The position numbers and the translations under genes were made by a program. The notes below the pieces were generated by a model. The model worked only from the letters and a program-made list of their open reading frames with translations, searched no databases and was not told the origin of the DNA. From an uncultured Acidimicrobiales bacterium (lineage in GTDB: Bacteria; Actinomycetota; Acidimicrobiia; Acidimicrobiales; SHLQ01), in assembly GCA_964562985.1 (NCBI GenBank), contig CAZLWE010000006.1, positions 20,991-84,990 on the forward strand: a stretch of 64,000 nt of DNA. The letters run 5' to 3'. Below, in pieces: positions 21,059 through 50,500 of this stretch (position 1 is the first letter of the stretch; every line of letters begins with the position of its first letter).

Positions 21059-21667
21059 TCAACGATGAAGGCCCTTGGGGTCTGGGCCGTATTGATTTGA
21101 TCCTCGCTCACCGTCGATCGCCAGCAGGATGAACAAGATCAAGCCCCCGATGTACGGGACGAACGTGATGAAGTACCACTTGCCCGACTTGCCGGTGTCG
21201 TGAAGACGCCGACAGGTGACTGCCAGATTTGGGATCAAGAGTCCCAGAACCGCAATTGCGAGCAAGATTATGGGCAGGACCACGAGCGAAGACTCGCCAT
21301 CGGTTGCTCCTGAGATTGCAAAGATCACTGCAACAGGGACGATTAGCAGGGCCGTGTAGATAAGGGTGAACCACCAAAATTCAGCCCGAGACGCGCGGCC
21401 ATCGAAGGCGGCGTACTTCTCTTTCACCACGTACACGAACCATTCGAGGGGATTCCGATCCACGGGTTCTACCGGGTCCCATTGATGGCCGACCGGTTGG
21501 GGCGGTGGTCCCGGGAACCCGGTCGTTGCTACCGGAGATGGTGGTATCGCCACGATGGGTTGTGGTCCGCTAGCCCAAGCTGCCCCATCCCAGTATCGGT
21601 GGGTGTTTGGAGGGTCGCCTTGTGCTGGATACCAACCCGGGGTTGCTGCTGATCCATCCGGATGCAT
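21059..21667 (-). CDS. DUF2510 N-terminal motif plus a DUF805 membrane domain
   Basis: 202 aa. GWYPAQGDP..HRYWDGAAW is followed by RASRAEFWWF..., RRLHDTGKSGKWYF and multiple TM helices. Confidence 0.7.
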   Translation of the reverse strand: MHPDGSAATPGWYPAQGDPPNTHRYWDGAAWASGPQPIVAIPPSPVATTGFPGPPPQPVGHQWDPVEPVDRNPLEWFVYVVKEKYAAFDGRASRAEFWWFTLIYTALLIVPVAVIFAISGATDGESSLVVLPIILLAIAVLGLLIPNLAVTCRRLHDTGKSGKWYFITFVPYIGGLILFILLAIDGERGSNQYGPDPKGLHR

Positions 21668-23928: not shown

Positions 23929-24750
23929 GTGAGCTATGGCACGCTGCCCGACGAGATTGATCTCGATGCGCCCCGACATCGCAAGCCGGTCTACCCACCG
24001 GTGGCCGCCAAGATGGGTGTAGTTGTCGAACATCGTGCGTCTGGTCGCGTCGGCGCGATCCTGTCTTTTAAACCCCAGCAGGTTGTGATCCGGGATCGGC
24101 ATGGTCGGGACCACACGCTGACCCCTCGTCCCGGCGCCTTCATGATCGATGGCAAGCCAGTAACCCTGCGACAACCGACAGTCCATGAGGTGCCCGATAA
24201 AGCGAGCCTTACCGCGTCGGGCTCGGTCGACCTCGGCGCCACGCCGGCCCGGATGGCCCGGGCGAGCCGTATCTGGGTCGAAGGCATCCACGATGCCGAA
24301 CTGATCGAAAAGGTATGGGGCGACGACCTGCGTGTGGAAGGGGTCGTTGTCGAACAACTCGAAGGTGCCGACGACTTGGCCGACCTAGTCGCTCGCTTTC
24401 AAGCTCGCCCAGGTCGCCGACTCGCGATTCTGCTCGACCACCTGGTCGATGGCAGCAAGGAGACTCGGATCGCCGCCACGATCTCGCATCCCGATGTACT
24501 GATAGTGGGGCACCCCTACGTCGACGTGTGGCAGACGATCCGGCCCGAGGTCGCAGGCATCGAGGCGTGGCCGGAAATTCCGAAGGGACAGGATTGGAAG
24601 CTCGGGGTGATGAAACACTTTGGGGCCACCGGCGAACCGGGGCTGTTCTGGAAGCGCCTCTTGGGCCGAGTGTCGGGCTTTAAGGATCTCGAGGTTCCTA
24701 TGGTCGGCGCCGTGGAGCAGATGATCGACTTCGTCACCATCGACTCCTGA
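23929..24750 (+). CDS. DUF3097-like conserved actinobacterial protein
   Basis: The ORF is open from 23830, and GTG 23929 is preferred because it leaves a divergent promoter region. It reads ..AAKMGVVVEHRASGRVGAILSF..VVIRDRHGRDH...GAFMIDGKPVTL. The start is uncertain. Confidence 0.5.
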   Translation: MSYGTLPDEIDLDAPRHRKPVYPPVAAKMGVVVEHRASGRVGAILSFKPQQVVIRDRHGRDHTLTPRPGAFMIDGKPVTLRQPTVHEVPDKASLTASGSVDLGATPARMARASRIWVEGIHDAELIEKVWGDDLRVEGVVVEQLEGADDLADLVARFQARPGRRLAILLDHLVDGSKETRIAATISHPDVLIVGHPYVDVWQTIRPEVAGIEAWPEIPKGQDWKLGVMKHFGATGEPGLFWKRLLGRVSGFKDLEVPMVGAVEQMIDFVTIDS

Positions 24751-25533: not shown

Positions 25534-26151
25534 GTGACTGTGCCCCGCTTTGTCCTCTCACGCCCCCGTGGCCGTTCCTGGCTTGTGGCGGGTGCTCTGG
25601 CTGTCGGACTTGCAGCCTGTGGTGGGGGTGGAGACGTCGCTTCTAACGGAACAGCTACCGCTGAGGCCCCAGCAGATGTGAGCGAGGCCGAGGCTGCGGC
25701 GGCGGAAAACCTTCCGCTACTTCGGCCAGCCGACCAAGTGGTCGACTTTGAAGTACTTCAGGTTGCCGACGGCTCGATTTCGACGCTGCGTCAAGAAGTT
25801 GCCGGGGACCGACCGGTCCTGCTTTGGTTCTTCTCTCCGCATTGACCGACCTGTCGTGCGGAAGCCGACGAAGTTGCGCAGTTTGCGCAAGAACATGACG
25901 AGGTAGTCCAGGTGATCGGACTCGGAACTCAGGACGATTTCCCGTTCGCTCGAGAATTCCGCGAAAGCGGTGGACTCGAACACGTCACCCTTCTTTGGGA
26001 TCCATCGTTCGCGACATGGCAGGCACTCGGGGTGCAGGCCAATTCGCAGATGATGGTGGTGACTCCAGATCTTTCACAGGGTTCGAGCTTGATCTTCGGC
26101 TTCACCGAGGATCAGCAACAGACCGTGCTCGACTTCGTCGCTGACCTCTAA
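25534..26151 (+). CDS. TlpA/ResA-like thioredoxin-fold lipoprotein with an in-frame UGA (candidate selenocysteine) at the first position of CxxC
   Basis: Track ORFs 25534..25845 and 25912..26151 share one frame. Read-through gives the lipobox LAVGLAAC, then ...PVLLWFFSPH-[TGA 25843-25845]-PTCRAEADEV...VIGLG...LLWDP..W..LGV..MMVV. Confidence 0.6.
25852..25870 (+). promoter_or_regulatory. SECIS-like hairpin 6 nt downstream of the in-frame UGA
   Basis: UGUCG(U)GC-GGAA-GCCGACG has 7 pairs including one G-U, a bulged U and a G-first tetraloop. A second perfect 7-bp hairpin lies at 25874..25890. Confidence 0.35.
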
Positions 26152-28178: not shown

Positions 28179-28378
28179 TCACTGCATCTTGGCCCGAGTA
28201 GCCGATCGACTGGCGTATTCGATGAGGAATTGCTCCTGAAGGGGAGAGAAATTTGAGCCTTCCGGCCCGGCTCGGTCCGACCGGTTGTGCCGATGAGAGT
28301 AGAAGATGTTTCTTGTCAACCAGCGATCGACAGCGTCTAGTGTGCGAGCTCACACTCCCGGAGATAGGACGCGCCATC

Positions 28379-29128
28379 ATGCGTGACCTCTCGATCGTCG
28401 TCCCGGCCTACAACGAAGCTGAGCGGATCGGTGAAACGCTCGAAGCGATCGCCGCGTTTCTCAACGGGCGAGATCAAAATGATGAGGTCATCGTCGTGGA
28501 CGATGGTTCCGAGGACCAGACCGCAGAGGTAGTTGACGGCTATCAACACCTGTTCCGCAACTTGCGCGTCGTTCGATCGCCTCGCAACGTTGGCAAGGGG
28601 CATGCGGTGCGTCAAGGAATGCTCGTGGCGACAGGTCGCTACCGGCTCTTCACCGATGCGGACAATTCGACCGACATCGGTGAGTTCGACCGCCTCATGG
28701 CCGCAGCTGACCAGGAACCGATCATGCCCGCGGTGATCATCGGTTCTGTCGCGCTGCACGAGTCAAACGTCACCGTCCGCCAGCCCGGGATTCGTTCGCA
28801 GCTGGGTGTCTTGGCGAACCGGATCATCCAGTGGCTGATCCTCCCGGGTATCCAAGACACTCAACGAGGGTTCAAAATATTTACTGGAGAAGCGAGTGAC
28901 GCGGTCTTTCGTCGCTGCACCAGTGACGGATGGGCCTTTGACGTCGAGGCACTCGCGATCGCGCAGGCGCTGGGCTACCACATTCTTGAGGTTCCCATCA
29001 CGTGGGAGCACCGGGAAGACTCGCGAGTGCAACCGAGCGCCTACGTGAGTTCGATGATCGATGTGTTCAGGATCAAGCGGCGTATCGACCGCGATGAGGA
29101 GATGGCGCTACCCTCCGAGCATGGCTGA
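28379..29128 (+). CDS. Family 2 glycosyltransferase (dolichyl/polyprenyl-phosphate hexosyltransferase-like)
   Basis: The start is moved to ATG 28379 (MRDLSIVVPAYNEAERI). Other motifs are VIVVDDGSEDQT, FTDADNS and QRGFK. Confidence 0.8.
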   Translation: MRDLSIVVPAYNEAERIGETLEAIAAFLNGRDQNDEVIVVDDGSEDQTAEVVDGYQHLFRNLRVVRSPRNVGKGHAVRQGMLVATGRYRLFTDADNSTDIGEFDRLMAAADQEPIMPAVIIGSVALHESNVTVRQPGIRSQLGVLANRIIQWLILPGIQDTQRGFKIFTGEASDAVFRRCTSDGWAFDVEALAIAQALGYHILEVPITWEHREDSRVQPSAYVSSMIDVFRIKRRIDRDEEMALPSEHG

Positions 29129-30970: not shown

Positions 30971-31447
30971 TTAGCGCGACTTCTCGAAGAGGACTTTTCG
31001 AATGATGTCGCTTGCGGTGAACCTGCCGATCGGACCCGTCGAGTAGAGCGACTGGACGATCTCACCATCGGGGTTAAGTAGCCAACCGGTGCCGTGGAGG
31101 AACTCCCTGTCACCAGCCTGGTAGGGAGCGCCGGTGTCTGCCGAGACTGTCGGAGCGTCGAGCTCTCCCCACATGGGGAACCCGACGTGCAGCCCCTCCC
31201 GGAGTTTGGCGACCGATTCGACGGAGTCGACGGAGCCTCCTGCGACTTTGATCCCGATGTCCATCAGTGGCAAAGCGTGCGTTGCGAAGTCAACCAACTG
31301 TTGACGACAGTATGGTCACCAATCGCCTCGGTAGAGCAGGACCGCTGCCCAATGTCCGGCGACGGAGGCGACCATGTCGTCCGCTTCGCCATCATGACGT
31401 ACGCCAACGATTGACGGCAGTTTCGAACCGTTCTCCAAAATGTGCAT
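30971..31447 (-). CDS. Peroxiredoxin-like / redoxin (AhpC-TSA family) protein with an in-frame UGA (candidate selenocysteine) at the first position of CxxC
   Basis: Track ORFs 31316..31534 and 30971..31297 share one frame. Read-through gives MHILENGSKLPSIVGV..DG...WAAVLLYRGDW-[TGA 31318-31316]-PYCRQQLVDF...GWLLNPDGEIV. ATG 31447 is the preferred start. Confidence 0.6.
31289..31305 (-). promoter_or_regulatory. SECIS-like hairpin 10 nt downstream of the in-frame UGA
   Basis: On the mRNA: GUCAAC-AGUUG-GUUGAC, a perfect 6-bp stem with G and U in the 5-nt loop. Confidence 0.35.
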
Positions 31448-31545
31448 GGAGCGAAGGTAGCAAGCAGTCCCGAAGTACGCCACGTGGCAACGGCAGTTGG
31501 AGAAGTCGCCGATCACTCGGCCGCGCTCAGCCATACACTTGCGCC

Positions 31546-33024
31546 ATGGATCACGACCCTTCGGTGAGCATTGATGTTGAGGAAACGGTCGACGGCGATT
31601 CTGCCGGTGGATCTTCTCGACTAGCGGTCATCGGAGGAGTGGCGGTGTTGATCATCGCCGTCGTGGTTGCGTTCTTCGCTCTCCGGCCAAGCGATGGAGA
31701 AACCGCTGCGGGGACAGCCCGCGAAGAGGGCGAAGAAACCGCTGACGTGACGGACTCCGATCCGGCTGCAGACGAGACCGCGACCACCGCGCCAGCGGGT
31801 CCTCCGCAGTTTGAGTCTCTTCCCATTGTCGAAGCGGTCCGAGCCGGTTCGGGCTTCTTGGGACTCATCACTTCATCGGGCAATCCGGTGCTCTTCGTTA
31901 CTGAAGATGGCGTTTCCTGGAGCGAGCTCGAGACCTCGGTCGTCGATCCACAGGGGATCGGAAGTTGGTCAAACCTGATCGCCTTCGACGGGGGGTTTGC
32001 GATGCTGCGCACCAGCGGCGATCTCTCCACATCAGCGGGACTCACCGAGAGGTTCATCTCGGTCGACGGCGTCGAATGGGAGCTCGATTCGAACTTCCAA
32101 CCCCTAGACAATCCCGGCGACTCCTTCTTCCCGGAGTTCCATTTGCCCGATGTGTTCGGGTTCGTTGCGTTCTCCACCGAGATACCGGCTGCCCCCCTCG
32201 GCCCACTCTTCGAGCAGGTGCTCGCCGAGGGTGCCCCGATCGACCCGTCGACGATCTGCTTCTTCGAAGAGTTCAATGCCGACCAATTTGAGGTCTTCCC
32301 CTGCGATACCGACGGCGAGACGTCAACCGGAGTCGCGACGGTGATCGCCACCGAGGACTTGGTTGACCCGGAGTCATTCGGTGCTGTCCAACAATGTGCA
32401 GCGTTCATCCGATCGCTGGGATCGACTCGAAGTGCGGCGATGGTCCTCCAGCGCTCGGGTGAGAGCGAAACGGTCGAAATCGACGGGTCATTCTCGACGT
32501 TCCAGAAATCGCTGCCGTCGGGCGTCATCGCCTCGGTCTTCGTCGGCGACCGCCTGTTTGCCGGATCGGCGGCCTGCGATGACTTCGCGGGTTCGGTCCC
32601 CGAGTTCCAGGCTGCAGAGATCGAACTCGTCGACCTCGACGGTACGGTTCGCCGCATCCCACTGCCGCCAGAGGTGCCACAGCCTCCAGCAACTCCTGCG
32701 GCTCCGTTCGCAACCGACACTGAACTCTTCGTCGTGCTCGAACAGTCGATCTGGCGACTCGACCTCGCAACCGAAGAGTGGACGATGGTCGTCGAACTGC
32801 CACCCGAGGCACTACGGCCCGGACGGTTCGGGTTTGCCGACGGCACTCGAGCGGTCAGCTTGGGCAGTGACGTCTTGTTCAGTGTCGACCTGGGGAGTGG
32901 GGAAGTCACGGAGACCCCAATCGAGATCGGCCGGTTCCCACAGATCCTCGAAGTCGACAGCGAGTTCATACTTGCACGGGACGAGGTCGAGGACGGCAGG
33001 CTCGACGTCGTTCCGCTTCGGTAG
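31546..33024 (+). CDS. Paralogue 1 of a four-gene family: N-terminally anchored protein with a PS(D/E)GETAAGT juxtamembrane motif and an Asp-box-like ectodomain
   Basis: The start is moved to ATG 31546 (MDHDPSVSIDVEE). The TM helix is LAVIGGVAVLIIAVVVAFFA, followed by LRPSDGETAAGT. Other motifs are TEDGVSWSEL, SVDGVEWELD and, near the C-terminus, SIWRLDLATEEWT. Confidence 0.7.
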   Translation: MDHDPSVSIDVEETVDGDSAGGSSRLAVIGGVAVLIIAVVVAFFALRPSDGETAAGTAREEGEETADVTDSDPAADETATTAPAGPPQFESLPIVEAVRAGSGFLGLITSSGNPVLFVTEDGVSWSELETSVVDPQGIGSWSNLIAFDGGFAMLRTSGDLSTSAGLTERFISVDGVEWELDSNFQPLDNPGDSFFPEFHLPDVFGFVAFSTEIPAAPLGPLFEQVLAEGAPIDPSTICFFEEFNADQFEVFPCDTDGETSTGVATVIATEDLVDPESFGAVQQCAAFIRSLGSTRSAAMVLQRSGESETVEIDGSFSTFQKSLPSGVIASVFVGDRLFAGSAACDDFAGSVPEFQAAEIELVDLDGTVRRIPLPPEVPQPPATPAAPFATDTELFVVLEQSIWRLDLATEEWTMVVELPPEALRPGRFGFADGTRAVSLGSDVLFSVDLGSGEVTETPIEIGRFPQILEVDSEFILARDEVEDGRLDVVPLR

Positions 33025-33072
33025 CCGCAGCGCCGCCATCGACGAATCCACGAGCGCCCCTACTATGGCGCC

Positions 33073-34620
33073 ATGGAGAAGGTGAGCGCGGTTCGAGTGG
33101 AGGTCGACGGCCATGTCGACGCACCGACACTCGCCGAACCCGTAGCGCCGCAGCCGTCCGGGTCTCGTCGCTGGATGTTCGTCCTCGGTGGCATCGCCAT
33201 CGTTGTGCTCGTCGTTGCGTTGGTTGCGTTGCAACCAACCGAGGGAGAGACGGCCGCGGGGACCGAACGCGGCACGACAACAACCGTTGCCCCTACGACC
33301 ACCACCGCAACCACGGTCACCACTCCGATCGTTCCAACGGTTCGCCGAGCAGTCGACCGGTCGGCGTCGAACGTCGGCGTTTTCTCCATGGTCCGCGACG
33401 ACAGCGGATTCTTCGCGCTCGGGCTGTCGGAAGGATTGACGCTCTTCCGGTCCTTGCGCGGTCTTGAGTGGCAGGAGGTCGCGATCGAAGTTTCCGAAGC
33501 GGCGGGTCCCGAGGAGGGTACGTGGACGGATTACCTACAGCTGATCGCGGTCGAGGATGGATTCGCCGTTCTGCGCGTTCGAGAGGACTTCACCCAGATC
33601 CCTCGGACGGTGGAGGTCGACCGGTTGTTTTCGGCCGATGGAGTGGTCTGGGACGTTGACACCTCGTTCGAGTCGATAGCCGCAGAACGAGGCGACGGCT
33701 GGGGGTTTGTGCACTTCGCCGATGCAGTCGGAGTCACCCAGGTCGACCGCGCCGTAGATCTTGAGGCGCTGCTCACGGGTGTGTTTACCGAGAGCGCTGG
33801 TGTTGATCCGGCAAACGTTTGCTGGATAGAACCTGTTGGGCTCAACCAGATCCGGACACTCCCGTGCGAGGACGCGACTGTCAGCTTCGGCACGGACATC
33901 ACCGCAACGGACCTTCGAGAACCGGAACGCTTCGACGCTCTCATCGAGTGCGCTGTAGCCATAAATATCGCGGACCCGCTCGTCAGCTCAACGGTGATTC
34001 GAGGTCGCGCCGGCACGCGTGTGCTCATGTCTGAGGATGGCCCTTTCGACCACATCGAGATAGGCGATGGCGCGATCGCGGCGCTTTCGTTGGGGAACAT
34101 CTACACAACAGACCAAGTCGACAGCACCGCGTGTGATTCCTTCGACGGCGGCTTTCCGGATTTGGTGACTCCAGCGGTTGAGCTCACGCTCGCCAATGGT
34201 GAGCAACGACGAGTGCCGCTACCCGATGACGCGTTGCCACAAGACAGAGATGCCGACCCCGAGTTGGATCGATGGGCTTCACCACGACTTCATGGCTCGG
34301 GTGACCGGCTCTTTCTCCTCGCTGGCACAGGAGTATGGAGCCTCGATCAGGCAACCGATTCCTGGATCGAGCTGGTAGATCTCCCCGTACCGCTCACCGG
34401 GTTTGTCGATTATGAGTTCTCCAGTGCCGAACAAGTCGTCGGGTTGAGCAATGACAGCATCGTCGTGGCTGACCTGGTCGAAGGAACCGTCGACAGGTTT
34501 GAGCATGGTGAAGACCTTGATGGTTGGGCGCGCTTGGTTTACGCCGACGATGACCTCTTCTTGATGGAGGTTGAGGACGGCGCGACAACCACCGTCGTGG
34601 CTGTCGATCTGCCGCAATAG
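33073..34620 (+). CDS. Paralogue 2 of the family
   Basis: MEKVSAVRVEV; SRRWMFVLGGIAIVVLVVALVA; LQPTEGETAAGT; a T-rich linker; LRGLEWQEV; SADGVVWDVD; GVWSLDQATDSWI. Confidence 0.7.
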   Translation: MEKVSAVRVEVDGHVDAPTLAEPVAPQPSGSRRWMFVLGGIAIVVLVVALVALQPTEGETAAGTERGTTTTVAPTTTTATTVTTPIVPTVRRAVDRSASNVGVFSMVRDDSGFFALGLSEGLTLFRSLRGLEWQEVAIEVSEAAGPEEGTWTDYLQLIAVEDGFAVLRVREDFTQIPRTVEVDRLFSADGVVWDVDTSFESIAAERGDGWGFVHFADAVGVTQVDRAVDLEALLTGVFTESAGVDPANVCWIEPVGLNQIRTLPCEDATVSFGTDITATDLREPERFDALIECAVAINIADPLVSSTVIRGRAGTRVLMSEDGPFDHIEIGDGAIAALSLGNIYTTDQVDSTACDSFDGGFPDLVTPAVELTLANGEQRRVPLPDDALPQDRDADPELDRWASPRLHGSGDRLFLLAGTGVWSLDQATDSWIELVDLPVPLTGFVDYEFSSAEQVVGLSNDSIVVADLVEGTVDRFEHGEDLDGWARLVYADDDLFLMEVEDGATTTVVAVDLPQ

Positions 34621-34702
34621 GTCGATCCGTCACCTTGTGAGCTGGTGAACCTTTCGGGGCTGAACCCTGGTGGATAGATCACGAGCTCTAAAATCTCCGC
34701 CC

Positions 34703-36130
34703 ATGGCTCCCGGCAGCTCAGTTCGCGTGGAATTTGAGGATTCGACGCTCAACGCGGGCACGGAGCCGGAGGTTGGCGCCCCAAATCCGAGCCCACCCAA
34801 CCGGCGCCGGGCAGTCGCAGGAGCGGTCGTCGCTGCTCTAGTGCTCGTGGTCGGGCTTCTGTCTTTCCGCCCGTCCGAGGGGGAGACCGCAGCGGGAACC
34901 GAGCGGGCGGCGCCAACGACCACCATTGAGCCGTCGACAACGACTTCGGTAACCCCATCAACCACGACAACCACGCGGGTGGAGGCTGCGCCCGTGGCGC
35001 CGGTGAACGCGTTTTTCGAAAGTGATGTCGTTCGTGGCGAGGTTGGCTTCCTTGCCCTGCTCGACTCGACGAGCGACAACGATTTCGCACCATCGCTCTA
35101 CCACTCGAATGACGGGTTGGAGTGGGAGCTAGTCGATACCGAACTCGCTCCGTTCGTCGCGAAAGGCGATGACATCACGATCGAGTACTCCCACCTGATC
35201 GCGTCGGGGGAAGGGTTCGGGTTATTGCGAACCCGGACCGTGGTGGATCGGTTGAATCCGACGTTTCCTGCTGCGAGCGTGACGGAGCGTCTGGTGTCGA
35301 TCGACGGCCAACGTTGGGCATTAGACGAAGGCTTCACTTCTCTGTTGCACAACGAGCTTGCACGACCTGCGTTTCACGTAGCGGACTCCTTTGGCTTCAT
35401 CACCGACGAAGTGATCGCGCGGGCAAGTGCTGGCGACTGTGAGGGGCAAGCCGAAGAAGCCGCCGATCGCTTTGGCGAACGATCATTACTCATTCACCGG
35501 CTCGGGCAGAGCGAACCCGAAGAGATTCAAGTGTCGCTGTCGGCTGGGCACACCCGACTATCCAACGCCTCCGTTGCGTCCTTTGTGCCGAACGGTCTGG
35601 AATTCGAGGCTCCGTTCGTGTGCCAACGCTTTCCGGGGATCAATCCTGAATTCCCGGCTCCCACCGTGCAACTGATCGCCGCCGACAACGCTGTGCGCCA
35701 GATCGGGCTACCCGCAGAGGTAACGGAGGGCGGCTTGGCGAATTCACCGGATGTCTCGCTTGTAGAAACCGAAGCTGGCCTCGTTTTGGTGCTCGATCGA
35801 TCGATTTGGCTTCTCGATACGGAAAGCGAGGAGTGGACAAGGCTGCTCGAAATACCTGTCGGCCCACTGAACATCCTCGACTATCAGGTCACAGATTCCG
35901 GCGACGTTGTCGCGTTGCTTAGCGCCGATGCGGCGGTGATCATCGATCCCGCGACAGCAGAATCACGATCGGTCAACCTGGCAGGCACAACTGGTTTGCC
36001 GATAATCCTCTACGCCGACGATGAGTTGGTGGTGACGCCAGGAGCGCTTCGTGAGGACGTAACCCGGACGGTTCCGCTGACCAATCCGCAACCAATCCGA
36101 GGCACGTTCCCAGGCGAAGCGGCAGAGTAG
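34703..36130 (+). CDS. Paralogue 3 of the family
   Basis: ATG 34703 (MAPGSSVRVEF); NRRRAVAGAVVAALVLVVGLLS; FRPSEGETAAGT; a T/P/S linker; SNDGLEWELV; SIDGQRWALD; SIWLLDTESEEWT. Confidence 0.7.
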   Translation: MAPGSSVRVEFEDSTLNAGTEPEVGAPNPSPPNRRRAVAGAVVAALVLVVGLLSFRPSEGETAAGTERAAPTTTIEPSTTTSVTPSTTTTTRVEAAPVAPVNAFFESDVVRGEVGFLALLDSTSDNDFAPSLYHSNDGLEWELVDTELAPFVAKGDDITIEYSHLIASGEGFGLLRTRTVVDRLNPTFPAASVTERLVSIDGQRWALDEGFTSLLHNELARPAFHVADSFGFITDEVIARASAGDCEGQAEEAADRFGERSLLIHRLGQSEPEEIQVSLSAGHTRLSNASVASFVPNGLEFEAPFVCQRFPGINPEFPAPTVQLIAADNAVRQIGLPAEVTEGGLANSPDVSLVETEAGLVLVLDRSIWLLDTESEEWTRLLEIPVGPLNILDYQVTDSGDVVALLSADAAVIIDPATAESRSVNLAGTTGLPIILYADDELVVTPGALREDVTRTVPLTNPQPIRGTFPGEAAE

Positions 36131-36133
36131 TCC

Positions 36134-37519
36134 ATGGCTTCCGGACGCTCGGTGCGCGTGGAGATTGGAGAAGGTGGTTCCGACTCGTCGGACGCGCCTG
36201 AACCCGTTGCACTCGAGTCCAGGCGAGACAAGCGGGCGGTTCTGATTGGGGCGGTGCTGACACTTGGGCTCGTTGCAGCGGCGCTCTTGGTCTTTCGCCC
36301 CTCCGAAGGCGAAACCGCCGCCGGTACCCAACGACAGACGACAACGTCTACAACGGTCTCTCCCGCCACGTCCTTGGCATCAACGCCCACGGAGACGGTG
36401 GCCCCTGCCATCCCAGCCGCCTTCGCCGGTAGCGATGTCGTTTGGGGCCCATCAGGCTTTTTGGCGCTGCTACCCACCGGAAGCATTGGTTCGCTTCCCG
36501 CTCTCTACCGGTCCGACGATGGCATCGACTGGGAACACGTAGAGCTAGAGATTCCACCGATCGATGAAACCGGAATCGACTTTGTCGATTACTCAAATCT
36601 GATTGCTGCAGGGGGAGAGAATTTCGCGATTTTGCGGACCGGGTTTAGCAACGAAGGTCAAGGGCCTCGTCGGGCTCCTCGTATAACCGAGCGCCTGGTT
36701 TCGGCAGACGGGCAGCGTTGGGTCCTCGATGGCGCAGTCACCACGGTGCAACATCAGACCCTTGCGTCGCCCTCGTTCCATGTTTCCAACGCGTTCGGTT
36801 TCTCGATCGGCGCCGTCGTCTTGCAAGGGACCTCCGGCGTGGGCTGCGAGGCATTGCTAGGTAGCGAAGTGAACCCGTTCGCGAACCCGCAACTTATTCA
36901 CCGCTTTGGACGTCTGGAGCCGACCGAAGTGCGTGCATCGTCTGGCGTCGCGCACACCCAGCTCAGTGGAGCACGAATCGCGTCATTCACGTCGAATGAG
37001 ATACGTGTGGAGACATTGGCAGCGTGTGGTGTCTCTCCGGGCGATCTCGATTCAGTTCGTCTTGCGTCCATAGAAATCATCACGCCTGACGATGCTGTCA
37101 GACAAATTCCACTTCCCGAGACGGTCATCGATGCCGGAGACTTGGGAGATTGGCCCCAGCCTTCGCTATTTGGAATCGACGATGGACTGCTCGCAGTCCT
37201 CGGACGCTCGGTGTGGCGCCTCGAGGTGGATTCCGAGGAGTGGACCTGGCTACTGGATCTGCCTGCGGAGGCCGACTCGATTCGCGACTATCAGATCGTC
37301 GATGGGCGCTATGTGGTCGGGTTGGCCGAGGCGGTCGTCCTTCGCGCCGACCTCGAACTGGGTGAGGTAGCAACCAACACCATCTCCACGGGCCTCAACC
37401 CTGGATCCGAGATCTTGTACGCCGATAGCGAGATCATCATCACCGAAAGCCTCGACCAAAACGAAGCCACAACCCGCCTGCCTTTACCGACCCCGTTCTT
37501 CCCAGAAGACGAGGAGTAG
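36134..37519 (+). CDS. Paralogue 4 of the family
   Basis: It starts 3 nt after paralogue 3. MASGRSVRVEI; RRDKRAVLIGAVLTLGLVAAALLV; FRPSEGETAAGT; SDDGIDWEHV; SADGQRWVLD; SVWRLEVDSEEWT. Confidence 0.7.
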   Translation: MASGRSVRVEIGEGGSDSSDAPEPVALESRRDKRAVLIGAVLTLGLVAAALLVFRPSEGETAAGTQRQTTTSTTVSPATSLASTPTETVAPAIPAAFAGSDVVWGPSGFLALLPTGSIGSLPALYRSDDGIDWEHVELEIPPIDETGIDFVDYSNLIAAGGENFAILRTGFSNEGQGPRRAPRITERLVSADGQRWVLDGAVTTVQHQTLASPSFHVSNAFGFSIGAVVLQGTSGVGCEALLGSEVNPFANPQLIHRFGRLEPTEVRASSGVAHTQLSGARIASFTSNEIRVETLAACGVSPGDLDSVRLASIEIITPDDAVRQIPLPETVIDAGDLGDWPQPSLFGIDDGLLAVLGRSVWRLEVDSEEWTWLLDLPAEADSIRDYQIVDGRYVVGLAEAVVLRADLELGEVATNTISTGLNPGSEILYADSEIIITESLDQNEATTRLPLPTPFFPEDEE

Positions 37520-46392: not shown

Positions 46393-47970
46393 ATGACGAT
46401 CGACAGTCCAGAGAACCCGGCGTTTGAGACGCCGCCATCTCCTCCACCACCGACGGCACCACCACCGCCGACACCGAACATCCAGGTTCGCCCGGACTCT
46501 CCGCTGGCGACGGGGATCGAGCTCATTGCCATCGCGATAGTCGGCTTGCTTGCGAACTTCGCGCTTCGTGCTTTGGCAGTCGACTCGGTCCTCGCGATCG
46601 GCGTGTTCGGAATCCTGATGGTGCTGATGCTGCGCCGGTCACCACATCGCGGCAGTCACCTCGCCCTGTTCGGAGCCGCTGCGCTCCTACTCCCGTGGTA
46701 CGTCCTTCGAAGCGACCCCGCATTGCTGTTCGTGAACACGGTGATGGTGTTCGTGCTGCTCGCGGTCGGCGCCGGCTACTCACTCAAGGACAACGCCTTC
46801 GACACGTCCGTGCGTCGCAACATCGCCCACACCTTCGCTATGGGTCTCGAATGGGCCTTCGGGTTGAACATGGGATTCGGCTGGCTCAAGAAGGTGGGCG
46901 AATCCAAAACCGCTGGGCCGGTTGTTCGCGGCGCCCTCATCGCCGCACCGATTCTGATCGTGTTCGCCGTGCTCCTGGCCTCGGCCGACGAGGTCTTTGC
47001 CGGCCTCCTGTTGTTCACCGACATCGGCTCTGGGATCTCCCATCTCCTCTTGTCGGGGTTCCTCGCCGTCCTGGCCTTCGGATACGTCAGTCGCGCTGCA
47101 CACGAGACCGCCGCGCCCAACAGTACCTTCAACCTCCGAATGCTCGGCCCAATCGAGGTGGCCATCATCCTCGGGAGTCTGATGGTCCTTTTTGCCGCCT
47201 TCAGCATCACCCAGTTCGTTGTCGCACTCGGAGGAGCTACCACCGTTCTCGAGACGGAAGGCCTGACCCAAGCCGAGCACGCCCGCCAGGGGTTCTTCGA
47301 ATTGTTGTTCGCATCGGCGTTAGCCGGCCTTGTGGTCGGCGCAGTCCGGGCGTTTCGCACCACCGGAGATGAGCCCGAGGAGGGTGCCGAGCAGGAGACC
47401 GTGCCCACGAAGCGCGACGCGTTCGTCCCGCTCGCCGTAGCTACCTTGGGCTTGACTATCGCGCTTGCCGCGTTCAGTCTCCAACGATTCGTCCTGTACA
47501 TCGGGTCATTCGGGCTCACCCTGGATCGAGTGTGGGCGATCGCGACGGTCATCACGATCATCGGCCTCCTGGCGCTGTACATCGCCGACATCGTCGGTTT
47601 CGGACCGGGCACGAGCTGGTACCCGACAACATCACTACTCGGCGTCGCGGCACTCGTAATCGTGTTGAACGTCATCAACCCGGGTGCCCGGGTGGCCGAC
47701 TACAACATCGATCGGGCGGACACCATCGACTTCGATGCCTGGACCGTCGCGCAGTTGCCCGACGATGCCATGTCCGAAGTCGTTTCGAGCCTTGATCAGC
47801 TAGGGGCGGCCGATCGATCTACCCTCGTCAACCACCTCTGTGGCCGATCCGACCGAACCACCACCTACGGCGCCATCGAATACAACCGTGCGTCGGTCCA
47901 AGCCGACAATGTGCTCGACGAACTCTGCGGCACTCGCCGTCAGGTCCGAACATCGAACTTCTCCGACTAG
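46393..47970 (+). CDS. Polytopic membrane protein, DUF4153/DUF4173-like (paralogue A)
   Basis: 525 aa with a Pro-rich N-terminus, more than 10 TM helices and a C-terminal soluble part (..ADYNIDRADTIDFDAW..LPDDAM..). Confidence 0.55.
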   Translation: MTIDSPENPAFETPPSPPPPTAPPPPTPNIQVRPDSPLATGIELIAIAIVGLLANFALRALAVDSVLAIGVFGILMVLMLRRSPHRGSHLALFGAAALLLPWYVLRSDPALLFVNTVMVFVLLAVGAGYSLKDNAFDTSVRRNIAHTFAMGLEWAFGLNMGFGWLKKVGESKTAGPVVRGALIAAPILIVFAVLLASADEVFAGLLLFTDIGSGISHLLLSGFLAVLAFGYVSRAAHETAAPNSTFNLRMLGPIEVAIILGSLMVLFAAFSITQFVVALGGATTVLETEGLTQAEHARQGFFELLFASALAGLVVGAVRAFRTTGDEPEEGAEQETVPTKRDAFVPLAVATLGLTIALAAFSLQRFVLYIGSFGLTLDRVWAIATVITIIGLLALYIADIVGFGPGTSWYPTTSLLGVAALVIVLNVINPGARVADYNIDRADTIDFDAWTVAQLPDDAMSEVVSSLDQLGAADRSTLVNHLCGRSDRTTTYGAIEYNRASVQADNVLDELCGTRRQVRTSNFSD

Positions 47971-47974
47971 ATCG

Positions 47975-49420
47975 ATGACCGAGATTCTCACCCCAGAAGC
48001 GGACGCTGCGGCACCCCAAGGGGGCTCCGATGCGCGCACCCAGGCGACGCGTTTGGGCCTGCTCGTGGCTGCGTCTTCCGCCGTGGCAGGAACCTTCCTT
48101 CCAGGCCTTGGTCTTGCGATCGGGCTCCTCGCGCTAATCGCCGCAGCTGTGTGCATCGTCGGGGCGCGGACTCGGGCCGGCCTTTGGTGTGCGCTGTGGA
48201 TGGTCTCGCTTCCGTTGCTCCTCATCCGAGACAACCGTTGGCTCGCCATCTGTGTCGTGGCGACGACGCTAGCTATTGCCATCTTCGCGTTCATGGCCCG
48301 AGCAAGTGGTCAGCCGATCAGCGACTTCGCCATCGCTCGAGTCTTCCGTCGGTCGCCAATTCCGACACACCTACGTGAGCCGCGGCCTATGCCGGAGCTC
48401 TCCATCGCTGGAGAGGTTTGGGCTGTACTGCGCGGGCTTCTGCTCGCCGTCCCGATCCTTTGGGTGTTCGGATCACTCCTCAGTTCGGCCGATTCGGTCT
48501 TCGCTTCCTTGTTCTCGTTCGACATTGGCTCGTCGGTGTCGTTCTCCTCAGAGATTCTCATCCGTCCCGCGTGGTTTATCGGCCTCGCAGCGCTCGCTGT
48601 GCCCGTGTTCCGCTTCGGCGCCGATCGACGTACGAGCACTCCGCTGGCGATCGAACAACGCGTTGGCGTCACCGAGTTGTCGATCGTGTTCGGCTCGGTA
48701 TGCGCATTGTTCGCCCTGTTCATTGGCTCGCGGGTGTCGTCGTTTGGGCGCGAGTTCAGCGATGAACTTCTTCGCGACGAGGTGCGCGGCGGCTTCTTCC
48801 AGTTGCTCTGGGTAGCGGCGCTCACCGTTGCGCTTGTCCTCGCAGCGCGCGTCATTGGCAAGGGCGCGCTGGATTCTCGACGAGTTCGGGCCCTCGCTCT
48901 CCTGACCATCGCGCTCGCCGCAGTCATCGATGGTCTCGCCCTGGTTCGCATCGCTGGATACGTCCGTGGAAGCTTCTCCACGCCGCTTCGGGTGTGGTCG
49001 TTCGGATTTGGGTTGTGGCTCCTCATCGTGCTTGCCATCGCCGCCGTTCGAGTCCTCGGACTGCGAGGGAAGACTCAGTGGTTCACCGTGGCGCTCCTCA
49101 CCAGTTGGATGGGGTTCGTCCTCGCGATGGGGCTCTTCAACCCAGACGCGTGGATCGCCACCTACAACTTCGAAAACGCGCCCACCGAACCGGATCAGTT
49201 CATTGCGGTGAATCCCTTGATCTGGCTCTCCGACGACGGCACTGAGGTCATCGTCGAGAACATCGAGGTGCTCCGCCCTATGCCCAACGACCGATTCGTT
49301 CGAGTTGTCGAGCATCTATGCGCAACGCCGTCCGACGATTCGTGGCGAGACTTCAACCTGTCTCGCGTAGACGCACGAGACCATATCGAAGAGCTATGTA
49401 GGCGCGAACAACGGCGCTAA
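47975..49420 (+). CDS. Polytopic membrane protein, DUF4153/DUF4173-like (paralogue B)
   Basis: The start is moved to ATG 47975, 4 nt after paralogue A's stop. It has the same architecture (..IATYNFENAP....LSDDG..). Confidence 0.55.
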   Translation: MTEILTPEADAAAPQGGSDARTQATRLGLLVAASSAVAGTFLPGLGLAIGLLALIAAAVCIVGARTRAGLWCALWMVSLPLLLIRDNRWLAICVVATTLAIAIFAFMARASGQPISDFAIARVFRRSPIPTHLREPRPMPELSIAGEVWAVLRGLLLAVPILWVFGSLLSSADSVFASLFSFDIGSSVSFSSEILIRPAWFIGLAALAVPVFRFGADRRTSTPLAIEQRVGVTELSIVFGSVCALFALFIGSRVSSFGREFSDELLRDEVRGGFFQLLWVAALTVALVLAARVIGKGALDSRRVRALALLTIALAAVIDGLALVRIAGYVRGSFSTPLRVWSFGFGLWLLIVLAIAAVRVLGLRGKTQWFTVALLTSWMGFVLAMGLFNPDAWIATYNFENAPTEPDQFIAVNPLIWLSDDGTEVIVENIEVLRPMPNDRFVRVVEHLCATPSDDSWRDFNLSRVDARDHIEELCRREQRR

Positions 49421-49516: not shown

Positions 49517-50500
49517 ATGACACGGGTATTTAGCGGCATTCAACCATCGGGCGACCTGCATCTCGGCAACCTTCTCGGGGCGTTGGTGAATTGGTCGAAG
49601 ATGCAAGACGACTTCGACGCTGTGTACTGCGTGGTCGATCTTCACGCACTAACTCTGCGCCACGAGCCCGAGGTACTTCGTGCCAAATCCATCGAGCTGG
49701 TCCAGCTACTGATGGCTGTCGGCCTTGATCCCGAGCGTTCGACGCTGTTTGTGCAGAGCCAGGTCCCTCAGCACCCGCAGCTCGCGTGGCTTATGGAGTG
49801 CACGGTGAGTTACGGCGAACTCAGTCGGATGACGGCCTTCAAGGACAAATCCAATCGCGACTCCACGAAGTTCATCTCCGCCGGCCTATTTACGTACCCT
49901 GCGCTGCAAGCAGCCGACATCTTGCTCTACGACACCGATGTCGTGCCCGTGGGCGACGATCAGCGACAACACATCGAGATCACACGCGACATCGCCGAGC
50001 GTTTCAACTCCCGCTACGGAGAAACCTTCGTTGTGCCCGAGCACCGCATTCCTCCCGCCGGAGCCCGCGTCATGGACCTCCAGCACCCCGATCGGAAGAT
50101 GTCGAAGTCCGAAGGGGAAAGCCCGGGAACCATTTGGGTGCTTGAAGACTTCAAGAAGGTCGAGAAGAAGTTCAAGCGGGCCGTGACCGATAGCGACAGC
50201 GAAGTTCGCTACGACGTCGAAGCCAAGCCCGGTGTGTCAAACCTCCTCGATATTCTTTCCTCCTGCACAGGCACCGCACCCGATGAGCTCGCGGCTAGCT
50301 ACACCCAATACGGACCGCTCAAGGGCGACACTGCCGAAGCGGTGATTGAACTCTTGAAACCGATCCAAGAACGCTTCGCTGAGTTGCAAGCCGATCCTGG
50401 CGAAACCGAGCGTCTGCTGCGGATCGGTGCCGATAAGGCGGAGGCCGTCGCCGCGGAGGTTCTTGCACGGGCGAAGGAAAATATCGGCCTTATGTCGTAG
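49517..50500 (+). CDS. trpS: Tryptophan--tRNA ligase
   Basis: 327 aa with GIQPSGDLHLGN (HIGH-type), GDDQRQH and the KMSKS motif. Confidence 0.92.
   Translation: MTRVFSGIQPSGDLHLGNLLGALVNWSKMQDDFDAVYCVVDLHALTLRHEPEVLRAKSIELVQLLMAVGLDPERSTLFVQSQVPQHPQLAWLMECTVSYGELSRMTAFKDKSNRDSTKFISAGLFTYPALQAADILLYDTDVVPVGDDQRQHIEITRDIAERFNSRYGETFVVPEHRIPPAGARVMDLQHPDRKMSKSEGESPGTIWVLEDFKKVEKKFKRAVTDSDSEVRYDVEAKPGVSNLLDILSSCTGTAPDELAASYTQYGPLKGDTAEAVIELLKPIQERFAELQADPGETERLLRIGADKAEAVAAEVLARAKENIGLMS

What the first reader, a model, noticed from the sequence alone, without database searches (positions are those of the whole stretch)
30971..31447. Second in-frame UGA at a CxxC motif: Prx-like/redoxin gene reading ...LLYRGDW-U-PYC...
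Minus-strand ORFs 31316..31534 and 30971..31297 are in one frame, interrupted only by TGA (31318..31316). The joined product reads MHILENGSKLPSIVGV.HDG....WAAVLLYRGDW-U-PYCRQQLVDF....GWLLNPDGEIV. This is the classic AhpC-TSA/redoxin FYRGxWCPxC motif with the stop at the first Cys. Ten nt downstream the mRNA forms GUCAAC-AGUUG-GUUGAC (31305..31289), a perfect 6-bp stem with G/U in the apical loop, which fits a bacterial SECIS-like element. Cys-to-stop at the catalytic residue in two independent thioredoxin-fold genes, each with a correctly spaced hairpin, is hard to explain by chance decay. Prx-like and thiol-disulfide oxidoreductase selenoproteins are known families in other bacteria, but Sec use is patchy in Actinomycetota.
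Basis: partly seen in the sequence, partly recalled or inferred. Interest (0 to 1): 0.8.

Follow-up and report, generated by a model that had tools for sequence, protein, structure and literature searches.

The report
Peroxiredoxin-like selenoprotein gene with SECIS
A small redox-enzyme gene of an uncultured Acidimicrobiales bacterium carries an in-frame UGA that almost certainly encodes selenocysteine; this is a real and well-conserved example of a known kind of recoding, and automatic gene callers cut it in two every time.

Summary
On the minus strand, 31447..30971 is one 158-codon reading frame broken only by TGA 31318..31316, inside YRGDW-U-PYC. The hairpin GUCAAC-AGUUG-GUUGAC (31305..31289) starts 10 nt after the TGA.

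- The TGA sits at the same codon in all 18 related Acidimicrobiales loci and in 79 of 79 metagenome loci that cover the site.
- All 88 database homologue clusters are truncated after it.
- The 43 codons before the TGA are under the same purifying selection as the part after it (dN/dS 0.08 versus 0.10).
- More distant full-length homologues carry Cys at this position.
- The seven codons that form the hairpin show almost no synonymous change, against a gene-wide median of 0.51.
- Across the family, four of the six stem pairs show compensatory changes, and the loop AGUU(G/A) is invariant.

The product belongs to the known Prx-like UxxC selenoprotein class. U replaces the Thr of the peroxiredoxin TxxC motif, and the Prx Arg is absent.

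The second TGA gene in the window (25534..26151) is also conserved and has the same 6-bp stem with an AGUU(G/U) loop.

Not verified: selABCD and tRNA-Sec are not in the window and could not be searched genome-wide.

Verdict: a genuine selenoprotein gene and a new member of a known kind, of modest interest.

The parts
30971..31447 (-). Complete coding sequence of the Prx-like selenoprotein. It has 158 codons including Sec44, starts at ATG 31447..31445 and stops at TAA 30973..30971.
   Evidence: There is one frame with a single internal TGA. The MHILENG start is conserved and relatives have stops upstream of it. The joined product matches Pfam AhpC-TSA at 43.7 bits against a cutoff of 26. dN/dS is 0.083 upstream and 0.098 downstream of the TGA.
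31316..31318 (-). UGA codon 44, read as selenocysteine. It is the first position of the U-P-Y-C redox motif.
   Evidence: TGA is at this codon in all 18 related loci and in 79 of 79 metagenome loci that cover the site. Full-length distant homologues have Cys here.
31307..31309 (-). Cys47 codon (TGT), the second residue of the UxxC motif. It aligns with the peroxidatic Cys of BCP/PrxQ.
   Evidence: The alignment to BCP chains in the PDB pairs DWCPYC with DSTPGC. The Cys is invariant in the family.
31289..31305 (-). SECIS core hairpin: 6-bp stem (31305..31300 with 31294..31289) and 5-nt loop AGUUG (31299..31295). The loop begins 16 nt after the UGA.
   Evidence: There are no nucleotide differences in codons 48-54 among 13 close species, although dS elsewhere is about 1.5. 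This is the lowest 7-codon synonymous window in the gene, reached by 0 of 20000 permutations. Across 73 distinct family sequences 92% of cells are paired, 4 of 6 pairs show compensatory changes, and AGUU plus the closing C-G pair are invariant.
31283..31309 (-). Possible lower stem (UGU/UGC at 31309..31307 with GCA at 31285..31283) flanking the core hairpin. It is seen only in the Acidimicrobiales clade.
   Evidence: RNAfold predicts it in most close relatives, and TGT versus TGC keeps a G-U or G-C pair. Across the whole family it is not supported, with only 55% of cells paired. This part is weak.
31454..31459 (-). TACCTT, a -10-like TAnnnT box 6 nt upstream of the ATG. This suggests a leaderless transcript.
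   Evidence: A TAnnnT at the same spacing, 6-8 nt before the start codon, is conserved in most of the 19 loci. No sigma-70 consensus promoter was found by the simple scan. This part is an inference.
25534..26151 (+). Second selenoprotein gene of the window, a secreted or lipoprotein-type thioredoxin/redoxin with the motif FFSPH-U-PTC. Its TGA is at 25843..25845 and its hairpin TTGCGC-AGTTT-GCGCAA at 25874..25890. It is listed as supporting context, not as part of this gene.
   Evidence: Close homologues are all N-terminal fragments that end at ...FFSPH, and full-length homologues at 31-40% identity have APHCPTC. The TGA and the hairpin are conserved in L027 and L028. The 6-bp stem and AGUU(G/U) loop match the Prx-like gene's hairpin. 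Only three such hairpins with a stem of 6 bp or more exist in the 64 kb.

Best explanation
Window 31447..30971 (minus strand) encodes a 157-residue cytoplasmic thioredoxin-fold protein of the Prx-like UxxC selenoprotein class, in an uncultured Acidimicrobiales (Actinomycetota) genome.

Codon 44 (UGA) is decoded as selenocysteine. The proposed route is the standard bacterial one. [quoted passage not shown] The hairpin has a 6-bp stem and the loop AGUUG, with G and U at nucleotides 21 and 22 counted from the U of UGA. The hairpin lies inside the coding sequence (R48-Q-Q-L-V-D-F54), so those codons are frozen.

The product carries a U44-P-Y-C47 redox centre. The selenolate would be the attacking nucleophile towards a disulfide, a sulfenate or a peroxide. 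It would then form a selenenylsulfide with C47, which a thiol reductant resolves.

Shown here: one conserved reading frame through the UGA, Cys at the site in distant homologues, and an RNA-level constraint and helix at the right place. Inferred: that the inserted residue is Sec, that SelB binds this hairpin, and the chemistry and substrate.
For: 1. Conserved UGA. TGA sits at the identical codon in 11 species-representative Acidimicrobiales genomes at 76-94% amino-acid identity. It is also there in 7 further loci at 50-80% identity and in 79 of 79 metagenome loci at 33-82% identity. All 88 database homologue clusters begin at query residue 51 or later, so gene callers truncated every one.

2. 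One translated ORF. dN/dS is 0.083 for the 43 codons before the TGA and 0.098 after it. Third-position differences are about 4-6 times those at first and second positions on both sides.

3. Sec/Cys pairing. Full-length relatives at 29-40% identity read YRGxWC(P/R)xC at the site.

4. RNA constraint. Codons 48-54 have a mean synonymous difference of 0.016 against a gene-wide median of 0.51, reached by 0 of 20000 permutations. An equally conserved peptide, YSTGPIGRFTA, varies freely at synonymous sites.

5. Helix covariation across 73 distinct sequences. 92% of cells are paired. Pair 18-26 is G-C in 38 sequences and A-U in 29. Pair 17-27 is A-U in 61 and G-C in 5. Two more pairs show double changes. 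No shuffle out of 500 reaches the observed covariation score, and slid registers pair in only 19-45% of cells. Some compensations change the protein, for example Val to Ala together with CAA to CAG.

6. UGA is still a stop in these genomes. Two window genes with complete Pfam matches end in TGA, and relative L026, which carries the in-frame TGA, ends 10 of 15 genes in TGA.

7. A second conserved TGA gene in the window has the same stem-loop design.

8. Geometry. The 10-nt spacer, 17-nt hairpin and G-U in the loop resemble the minimal E. coli fdhF SECIS, which has an 11-nt spacer, a 17-nt hairpin and G23/U24 (my own knowledge, not tested here).

9. Sec machinery has been reported in the same class, in Actinomarinales (bioRxiv 10.64898/2026.04.03.716425).
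Against: - No selA, selB, selD or tRNA-Sec was found in the 64-kb window, and the rest of the genome could not be searched.
- The hairpin alone is weak: -6.9 kcal/mol, z = -1.8.
- In the window and in L002, which have TGT rather than TGC at Cys47, a competing fold is the minimum-energy structure.
- Seven sequences with CAA changed to CAC (L021, L024, L031, L034, L036) break one or two pairs unless the register shifts.
- The outermost pair is unpaired in 18 of 73 sequences.
- There is no Rfam SECIS match even at E <= 10. Rfam has no general bacterial SECIS model, so this carries little weight.
- Much of the covariation separates two large clades, so the number of independent events is smaller than the cell counts suggest.
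- There is no experimental evidence for Se incorporation.
Confidence: 0.9

Rival explanations
1. Pseudogene or sequencing error. On this view the TGA is a recent nonsense mutation or an assembly mistake in a former Cys codon, and the gene is dead or mis-sequenced.
For: A single-base change from TGT or TGC gives TGA. Gene callers treat it as a stop. One relative, L025, does carry a frameshift in the N-terminal part.
Against: The same TGA is present in about 97 independent loci from many assemblies and samples. Both halves are under strong purifying selection in one frame, with dN/dS 0.08 and 0.10 at dS of about 1.5. No close homologue has a Cys codon at the site.
Confidence: 0.01
2. Genome-wide reassignment of UGA to a standard amino acid, as in code 4 (Trp) or code 25 (Gly). 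The TGA would then be an ordinary sense codon and no SECIS would be needed.
For: TGA is unusually rare as a stop in the window, ending 4 of 34 Pfam-supported genes. It ends none of 16 genes in the close relative L027. UGA-to-Trp reassignment was recently described in another Actinomycetota family (PMC13462651).
Against: Long ORFs in the window are intact under code 11. Only two genes show an in-frame TGA followed within 40 nt by the AGUU(G/U) hairpin, both at the first Cys of a CxxC motif. DUF805 and DUF3097 end at TGA exactly where their Pfam models end. Relatives that keep the in-frame TGA use TGA as their main stop: 10 of 15 genes in L026 and 5 of 5 in L021. Homologues have Cys, not Trp or Gly, at the site. 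The hairpin constraint would be left unexplained.
Confidence: 0.02
3. Recoding without selenium. The UGA would be bypassed by SECIS-independent near-cognate read-through that inserts Cys or Trp. Alternatively the locus would make two products, a 43-residue peptide and a C-terminal domain started at the internal TTG or GTG. The conserved hairpin would then act as a read-through stimulator or a re-initiation element.
For: The Sec machinery has not been seen for this genome. Downstream stem-loops can stimulate stop-codon read-through in other systems (my own knowledge). An in-frame TTG at 31297 lies inside the hairpin.
Against: The redox motif straddles the UGA, so a split product would lack its active site. 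The Sec/Cys pattern, the spacing and the G-U loop fit SelB-dependent decoding. Two unrelated genes share the same loop. Sec machinery exists in the same class. This protein class is an established selenoprotein family (PMC1088965 and PMC2398784).
Confidence: 0.05
4. The invariant nucleotides after the TGA would reflect protein and codon-usage constraints on RQQLVDF, not an RNA structure.
For: The peptide RQQL(V/A)DF is itself highly conserved in the Sec-containing forms.
Against: Other invariant peptides in the same gene vary at 21-73% of synonymous comparisons. Cys-containing homologues tolerate NEQL, RNHL, RKQL, GVQL and NAQL at the same place. Changes come in compensating pairs across the stem, some at the cost of an amino-acid change. 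The core persists in genomes of 38-68% GC.
Confidence: 0.02

Closest known systems
Prx-like (UxxC) thiol:disulfide oxidoreductase selenoproteins. These are 'Prx-like protein' in the Sargasso Sea set and 'Prx-like 1' (pfam00578, UxxC) in the GOS set (PMC1088965, PMC2398784). A 2026 review lists them as 'predicted with high confidence' (PMC13188914).
   Same: It matches PF00578. It has a thioredoxin-like UxxC where Sec-containing Prx has TxxU. Cys homologues exist. A small hairpin with a G-containing loop follows the UGA. It occurs in marine and aquatic metagenomes.
   Different: I could not compare it directly with the published member sequences, so it is not shown to be the same subfamily. This clade has its own signature: YRGxW-U-P(Y/F)C...QQL(V/A)DF...YSTGPIGR. 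The host is Acidimicrobiales. The full-text search found Sec use described for that class only in a 2026 preprint on Actinomarina.
Canonical peroxiredoxins of the BCP/PrxQ and AhpC type. The nearest solved structures are Xanthomonas BCP 5iph and 3gkk.
   Same: It has the same fold family, with E = 8e-6 to BCP. The second Cys of the motif aligns with the peroxidatic Cys.
   Different: The conserved Thr of TxxC is replaced by Sec. The catalytic Arg (IERSTF) is replaced by LHGTGW. NCBIfam equivalog scores fall far below their cutoffs: PrxQ 27 against 260, AhpC 24 against 272, PrxU 18 against 270.
The E. coli fdhF minimal SECIS, a SelB-binding 17-nt hairpin placed 11 nt after the UGA with G23/U24 in the loop (my own knowledge; Liu et al. 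1998).
   Same: It is a 17-nt hairpin 10 nt after the UGA, with G21/U22 in a small loop, lying inside the coding sequence.
   Different: It has no bulged U. The loop is AGUU(G/A) rather than GGUC. The sequences are unrelated. SelB binding was not tested.
The second TGA gene of the same window (25534..26151), a Trx-like or redoxin UxxC protein with an N-terminal lipoprotein-like signal.
   Same: Its UGA is at the first Cys of a CxxC motif. It is conserved in relatives. It has the same 6-bp stem, AGUU(G/U) loop and closing C-G pair.
   Different: The loop starts 34 nt after the UGA rather than 16 nt, with a smaller hairpin in between. It belongs to a different protein family branch, and full-length Cys forms lie closer to it at 31-40% identity.
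SelL and the 'Prx-like 2' UxxU proteins of aquatic organisms (mentioned in PMC2398784).
   Same: They are Prx-like folds with Sec in a CxxC-type motif.
   Different: They have two Sec residues (UxxU) or resemble pfam04592. This gene has one Sec and matches pfam00578.

Membership tests
Bacterial selenoprotein gene (SelB/SECIS-dependent UGA decoding) | An in-frame UGA conserved among orthologues, with coding constraint on both sides | tested here: met
   TGA is at the same codon in 18 related loci and 79 of 79 metagenome loci. dN/dS is 0.083 upstream and 0.098 downstream.
Bacterial selenoprotein gene (SelB/SECIS-dependent UGA decoding) | Homologues with Cys at the position aligned to the UGA | tested here: met
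   Full-length representatives P0125, P0127, P0135, P0148 and others read YRGxWC(P/R)xC.
Bacterial selenoprotein gene (SelB/SECIS-dependent UGA decoding) | A SECIS stem-loop just 3' of the UGA, with a small apical loop containing G and a UGA-to-loop distance of about 16-37 nt (consensus recalled from Zhang & Gladyshev 2005) | tested here: met
   There is a 6-bp stem with the loop AGUUG, and the loop starts 16 nt after the UGA. Synonymous change is suppressed. Four of six pairs covary, and 92% of cells are paired. Thermodynamic stability alone is not significant.
Bacterial selenoprotein gene (SelB/SECIS-dependent UGA decoding) | selA, selB, selC (tRNA-Sec) and selD present in the same genome | not testable with these tools
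   None is in the 64-kb window: there is no tRNA and no SelA, SelB or SelD domain among 40 ORFs scanned. Class-level support comes only from an Actinomarina preprint.
Bacterial selenoprotein gene (SelB/SECIS-dependent UGA decoding) | Selenium shown in the protein by 75Se labelling or mass spectrometry | not testable with these tools
   This needs an experiment.
Prx-like UxxC selenoprotein family (GOS 'Prx-like 1', pfam00578) | Match to Pfam PF00578 (AhpC/TSA) | tested here: met
   E = 3.1e-11, 43.7 bits against a gathering score of 26, using the U-to-C substituted sequence.
Prx-like UxxC selenoprotein family (GOS 'Prx-like 1', pfam00578) | A thioredoxin-like UxxC motif in place of the Prx TxxC or TxxU | tested here: met
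   U-P-Y-C aligns with T-P-G-C of BCP, so U falls on the Thr and C47 on the peroxidatic Cys. The family is described this way in PMC1088965.
Prx-like UxxC selenoprotein family (GOS 'Prx-like 1', pfam00578) | Direct sequence relationship to published members such as WP_010940744.1 | not tested
Canonical peroxiredoxin (AhpC / BCP-PrxQ) | The PxxxTxxC active-site motif with the conserved Thr | tested here: not met
   The Thr position is occupied by Sec, and by Cys in homologues.
Canonical peroxiredoxin (AhpC / BCP-PrxQ) | The conserved catalytic Arg, and scores above the NCBIfam equivalog cutoffs | tested here: not met
   BCP's IERSTF aligns with LHGTGW, which has no Arg. The best NCBIfam score is 27 bits against a cutoff of 260.
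Rfam SECIS families | A covariance-model match | tested here: not met
   There was no match at gathering score over the whole window and none at E <= 10 in 31230..31360. Rfam has no general bacterial SECIS model, so this does not count against a SECIS.

The most novel reading that the evidence does not exclude
The window's immediate clade (the window, L001-L003 and L027) uses Sec and has largely abandoned UGA as a stop. About 5 of 61 genes end in TGA, and none of 16 do in L027, with TAG and TAA used instead despite 61% GC. Sister lineages that carry the same selenoprotein end about 40-67% of genes in TGA.

One reading the data do not exclude is that competition between SelB and RF2 is driving UGA towards a codon used almost only for Sec. 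This would be an early codon-capture stage, like the one recently proposed as the primer for UGA reassignment in Eggerthellaceae. It would be a second, independent, high-GC case in Actinomycetota. The strongly frozen SECIS of this gene would be part of an unusually efficient Sec-decoding system.
Probability: 0.12. Interest if true: 0.7.

Novelty: new member of a known kind. Interest (0 to 1): 0.3.

Why it matters
- **Annotation.** All 88 homologue clusters in a 5.8-billion-protein database are truncated C-terminal fragments that lack the active site. The whole subfamily is therefore mis-annotated, and its redox centre is invisible to function prediction.
- **Biology.** Together with the second gene, this shows that an abundant group of uncultured aquatic Acidimicrobiales uses selenocysteine. 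The literature search found almost no mention of this for the class.
- **Method.** The family gives a compact bacterial SECIS supported by covariation: a stem of 5-6 bp, the loop AGUUR, and 16 nt from the UGA to the loop. It could seed a search model for further selenoprotein genes in these genomes.
- **Limits.** None of this changes what is known about how Sec decoding works.

Tried and rejected
- **Third TGA-joined pair.** A possible pair on the minus strand (28763..29032 plus 28337..28759) was rejected. The plus-strand ORF 28253..29128 is a GT2 glycosyltransferase.
- **General in-frame TGA scan.** I scanned the window for in-frame TGAs with coding-like GC3 on both sides. It gave many antisense false positives and was abandoned. 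The hairpin-anchored scan was specific.
- **Rfam.** No match at gathering score or at E <= 10.
- **Representative search with the U-to-C protein.** The C-terminal 114 residues were used instead.
- **Structure prediction of the full-length protein.** Not attempted, for the same reason.
- **Metagenome scan with a 21-sequence family alignment.** It failed because no stretch was conserved enough. A 6-sequence alignment worked.
- **P0087.** No DNA was retrievable.
- **Lower SECIS stem (positions 10-12 with 34-36).** Not supported family-wide, with 55% of cells paired.
- **Sec machinery.** Pfam scans of 40 window ORFs found no SelA, SelB or SelD. Literature searches for Acidimicrobiales or Ilumatobacter with selenocysteine found nothing specific. 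I ran no further search on E. coli SelA or SelB. The top of that hit list would be enterobacterial, and the result would at best give order-level evidence.
- **Conserved operon context.** None was found beyond close relatives, where a DUF4916/NUDIX gene lies downstream.
Full report
**Observation**

On the minus strand the frame 31534..30971 has a single internal stop. It is TGA at 31318..31316, within ...HWAAVLLYRGDW*PYCRQQLVDFATH..., and the frame ends at TAA 30973..30971. The inverted repeat GTCAAC-AGTTG-GTTGAC occupies 31305..31289, 10 nt after the TGA. The description is therefore accurate.

Two refinements apply. The real start is the ATG at 31447 (MHILENG...). In eleven related genomes that Met is conserved and stop codons lie just upstream. 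A TAnnnT box sits 6-8 nt before the start codon in most loci, which is the arrangement of a leaderless actinobacterial transcript (inference). The hairpin on its own is unremarkable: -6.9 kcal/mol, z = -1.8, and 15 of 200 shuffles fold as well. In the window's sequence a competing fold is the minimum-energy structure of the 49-nt segment. The sequence of one genome alone would not have settled the matter.

**Whether the UGA is read through**

The joined protein, with U written as C, matches Pfam AhpC-TSA at 43.7 bits against a threshold of 26. A search of 5.8 billion proteins returned 88 homologue clusters. Every one is 89-133 residues long and begins at query residue 51 or later, so each was cut by the gene caller after the TGA. 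None contains the CxxC region.

Fetching the DNA shows why. TGA sits at the identical codon in eleven species-representative 'Acidimicrobiales bacterium' genomes at 76-94% identity. It is also there in seven further loci at 50-80% identity. Of the 80 best metagenome loci at 33-82% identity, 79 cover the site and all 79 have it.

Among 13 close species, the 43 codons upstream of the TGA have dN/dS 0.083 at dS of about 1.4. The downstream part has dN/dS 0.098. Differences concentrate at third codon positions on both sides. A pseudogene, a sequencing error, or an untranslated leader in front of a shorter gene cannot produce this pattern.

An exhaustive HMMER search with the C-terminal part found a small family of 198 representatives. 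It contains two kinds of entries. Fragments of about 110 residues start just after the site. Full-length proteins of 150-180 residues, at 29-40% identity, read YRG(H/D/Y)WC(P/R)(Y/F)C there. This is the Sec/Cys pairing used to recognise selenoproteins.

**The hairpin**

In a codon alignment of 18 loci, the pairwise synonymous difference has a median of 0.51 per codon. For codons 48-54 (CGT CAA CAG TTG GTT GAC TTC) it is 0, 0, 0, 0, 0.11, 0 and 0. This is the lowest 7-codon window in the gene, and none of 20000 permutations reaches it. Among the 13 close species there is not one nucleotide difference in these 21 nt. The flanking codons CCN, TAY, TGY and ACN vary freely. The equally conserved peptide YSTGPIGRFTA also varies at synonymous sites.

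The metagenome set adds variation. On 73 distinct sequences the six pairs 14-30 to 19-25, counted from the U of UGA, are formed in 92% of cells:
- Pair 18-26 is G-C in 38 sequences and A-U in 29.
- Pair 17-27 is A-U in 61 and G-C in 5, in more than one clade.
- Pairs 14-30 and 15-29 also show double changes.
- C16-G28, the closing pair C19-G25 and the loop A20-G-U-U23 never vary.
- The fifth loop base is G or A.

No shuffle out of 500 reaches the observed covariation score, and slid registers pair in only 19-45% of cells. Some compensations are paid for with an amino-acid change, for example GTT Val to GCT Ala together with CAA to CAG, or CAA Gln to CGA Arg together with GTT to GTC. Cys-containing homologues are free to read NEQL, RNHL, RKQL or NAQL at the same place. 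The core persists in contigs of 38-68% GC.

A proposed lower stem (positions 10-12 with 34-36) is confined to the Acidimicrobiales clade and is not supported family-wide.

Caveats:
- Much of the 18-26 signal separates two large clades.
- Seven sequences with CAA changed to CAC break a pair unless the register shifts.
- The outermost pair is open in a quarter of the sequences.

The geometry is a 10-nt spacer, a 17-nt hairpin, and G and U at nucleotides 21 and 22. This is close to the minimal E. coli fdhF SECIS as I recall it, which has an 11-nt spacer, a 17-nt hairpin and G23/U24. SelB binding itself is inferred. Rfam has no match, but it also has no general bacterial SECIS model.

**Rivals**

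Genome-wide reassignment of UGA is excluded. In the window, DUF805 and DUF3097 end at TGA where their Pfam models end. Long ORFs are intact under code 11. Relatives that keep the in-frame TGA use TGA as their commonest stop: 10 of 15 genes in L026 and 5 of 5 in L021. Homologues have Cys at the site, not Trp or Gly.

SECIS-independent read-through, or a two-product locus, cannot be excluded without experiments. Neither explains the Sec/Cys pattern or the shared loop described below, and a split product would lack its redox motif.

**The second gene**

Close homologues are all N-terminal fragments ending ...FFSPH. Full-length homologues at 31-40% identity read APHCPTC. The TGA is conserved in L027 and L028, and L027 also carries the Prx-like gene.

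Its conserved hairpin TTGCGC-AGTTT-GCGCAA has the same design as the one studied here: a 6-bp stem, a closing C-G pair and the loop AGUU(G/U). I scanned both strands of the window for stems of at least 5 bp with an AGUU(G/U) loop, an in-frame TGA 12-40 nt upstream, and open frames on both sides. The scan returned exactly these two genes. Only three hairpins of this type with stems of 6 bp or more exist in the 64 kb, against about 0.4 expected. This is a post-hoc comparison of two elements. It is still what one SelB recognising both would predict.

**What the protein is**

The best solved relatives are BCP/PrxQ peroxiredoxins, at E = 8e-6. In that alignment D-W-U-P-Y-C pairs with D-S-T-P-G-C. 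Sec therefore replaces the conserved Thr of the Prx TxxC motif, and Cys47 sits at the peroxidatic-Cys position. The catalytic Arg (IERSTF) is replaced by LHGTGW. NCBIfam peroxiredoxin equivalogs score an order of magnitude below their cutoffs.

It is therefore not a canonical peroxiredoxin. It is a Prx-fold protein with a thioredoxin-like UxxC centre. The Sargasso Sea study describes the 'Prx-like protein' selenoprotein family in these terms (PMC1088965). The GOS study lists 'Prx-like 1, pfam00578, UxxC' with 225 Sec sequences and 2,740 Cys homologues (PMC2398784). A 2026 review lists 'Prx-like thiol:disulfide oxidoreductase, PF00578, UxxC/UxxU' as predicted with high confidence (PMC13188914).

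The protein has no signal peptide. The likely chemistry is nucleophilic attack by the selenolate, formation of a Se-S bond with Cys47, and reduction by a thiol system. This is inferred from the family, and the substrate is unknown.

Gene context gives no functional clue. A DUF4916/NUDIX gene follows in close relatives only, and neighbours differ in the more divergent loci.

**What could not be tested**

The window contains no tRNA. None of 40 scanned ORFs has a SelA, SelB or SelD domain.

The only literature support found is a 2026 preprint. It reports selC, selA, selD and a divergent selB in all 84 complete Actinomarina genomes, which belong to the same class but a different order. Searches for Acidimicrobiales or Ilumatobacter with selenocysteine found nothing specific.

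**Verdict**

This is a bona fide selenoprotein gene of the known Prx-like UxxC class, with a SECIS backed by synonymous-site suppression and covariation. It sits in an Acidimicrobiales genome where such genes are systematically mis-called. It is a new member of a known kind. Its interest is modest and lies mainly in annotation and in documenting Sec use in this group.

**By-product**

The window's immediate clade makes very little use of TGA as a stop. This is described under things noticed in passing.

Noticed in passing
Whole window (TGA stops at 21059..21061, 24748..24750, 29126..29128 and 58563..58565); loci L001-L003 and L027 compared with L004-L011, L025, L026 and L028: TGA is strikingly rare as a stop codon in this 61%-GC genome. 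Of 34 Pfam-supported genes, 4 end in TGA, 17 in TAA and 13 in TAG. In the closest relatives 1 of 27 genes ends in TGA, and L027 has 0 of 16 with 13 TAG. More distant Acidimicrobiales that carry the same selenoprotein end about 40-67% of genes in TGA. Orthologues of the window's GH2, SdhA, PALP, GDSL and membrane-protein genes end in TGA in L026. No other in-frame TGAs were seen, so this looks like clade-specific avoidance of UGA stops in a Sec-using lineage. A 2026 paper on Eggerthellaceae proposes that Sec/RF2 competition leads to loss of UGA as a stop (PMC13462651). prfB is not in the window.
   Followed up: partly
window 25534..26151 (+), TGA 25843..25845, hairpin 25874..25890: This is a second conserved selenoprotein gene, a Trx/redoxin with a lipoprotein-like N-terminus and the motif FFSPH-U-PTCRAE. 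All close database homologues are N-terminal fragments that end at the TGA, and Cys forms exist at 31-40% identity. Its hairpin shares the 6-bp stem and AGUU(G/U) loop with the Prx-like gene, but the loop starts 34 nt after the UGA, behind a smaller and variable hairpin.
   Followed up: partly
window 31454..31459 (-) and the corresponding positions in L001-L026: A conserved TAnnnT box lies 6-8 nt upstream of the start codon of the Prx-like gene in most loci, and there is no Shine-Dalgarno sequence. This suggests a leaderless mRNA. The divergent membrane-protein gene starts about 100 bp away at 31546.
   Followed up: partly
L051, L055, L057-L102 and L104-L108 (metagenome loci): A large, more distant branch of the same Sec family reads GY(G/A)V.L.YRG(Y/H)W-U-PFC.QQLADFQ. 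It occurs in contigs of 38-68% GC (mean 48%) and is presumably not from Acidimicrobiales. It keeps the same SECIS core (UCAGC-AGUUR-GCUGA) and spacing. The QQL peptide and the SECIS travel together across very different genomes, which may reflect horizontal spread of the gene.
   Followed up: no
L025 about 9800..10000 (contig c_000000139493): In this relative the conserved start (ATG CGC ATG CTT GAA AAC GGC, MRMLENG) is out of frame with the rest of the N-terminal region. This is either an assembly indel or a real frameshift. The SECIS loop there reads AGUUA.
   Followed up: no
window 31546..37519 (+): Four consecutive ORFs of about 460-515 residues (31546, 33073, 34670 and 36134) have no Pfam match. 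The first begins with a membrane anchor. The first two are paralogous, at 25-35% identity to each other and to copies in relatives. They form a lineage-specific expanded family of unknown function next to the selenoprotein gene.
   Followed up: no
window 46393..49420 (+): Two adjacent DUF4153 membrane-protein genes (46393..47970 and 47840..49420) appear to overlap by about 130 bp as listed. The second probably starts further downstream.
   Followed up: no
window 50493..50509 (+): The only other hairpin in the window with a stem of 6 bp or more and an AGUUG loop (TGTCGT-AGTTG-GCGGTG, with G-U pairs) overlaps the TAG stop of the TrpRS gene. It has no in-frame TGA upstream and is taken as a chance match.
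   Followed up: yes
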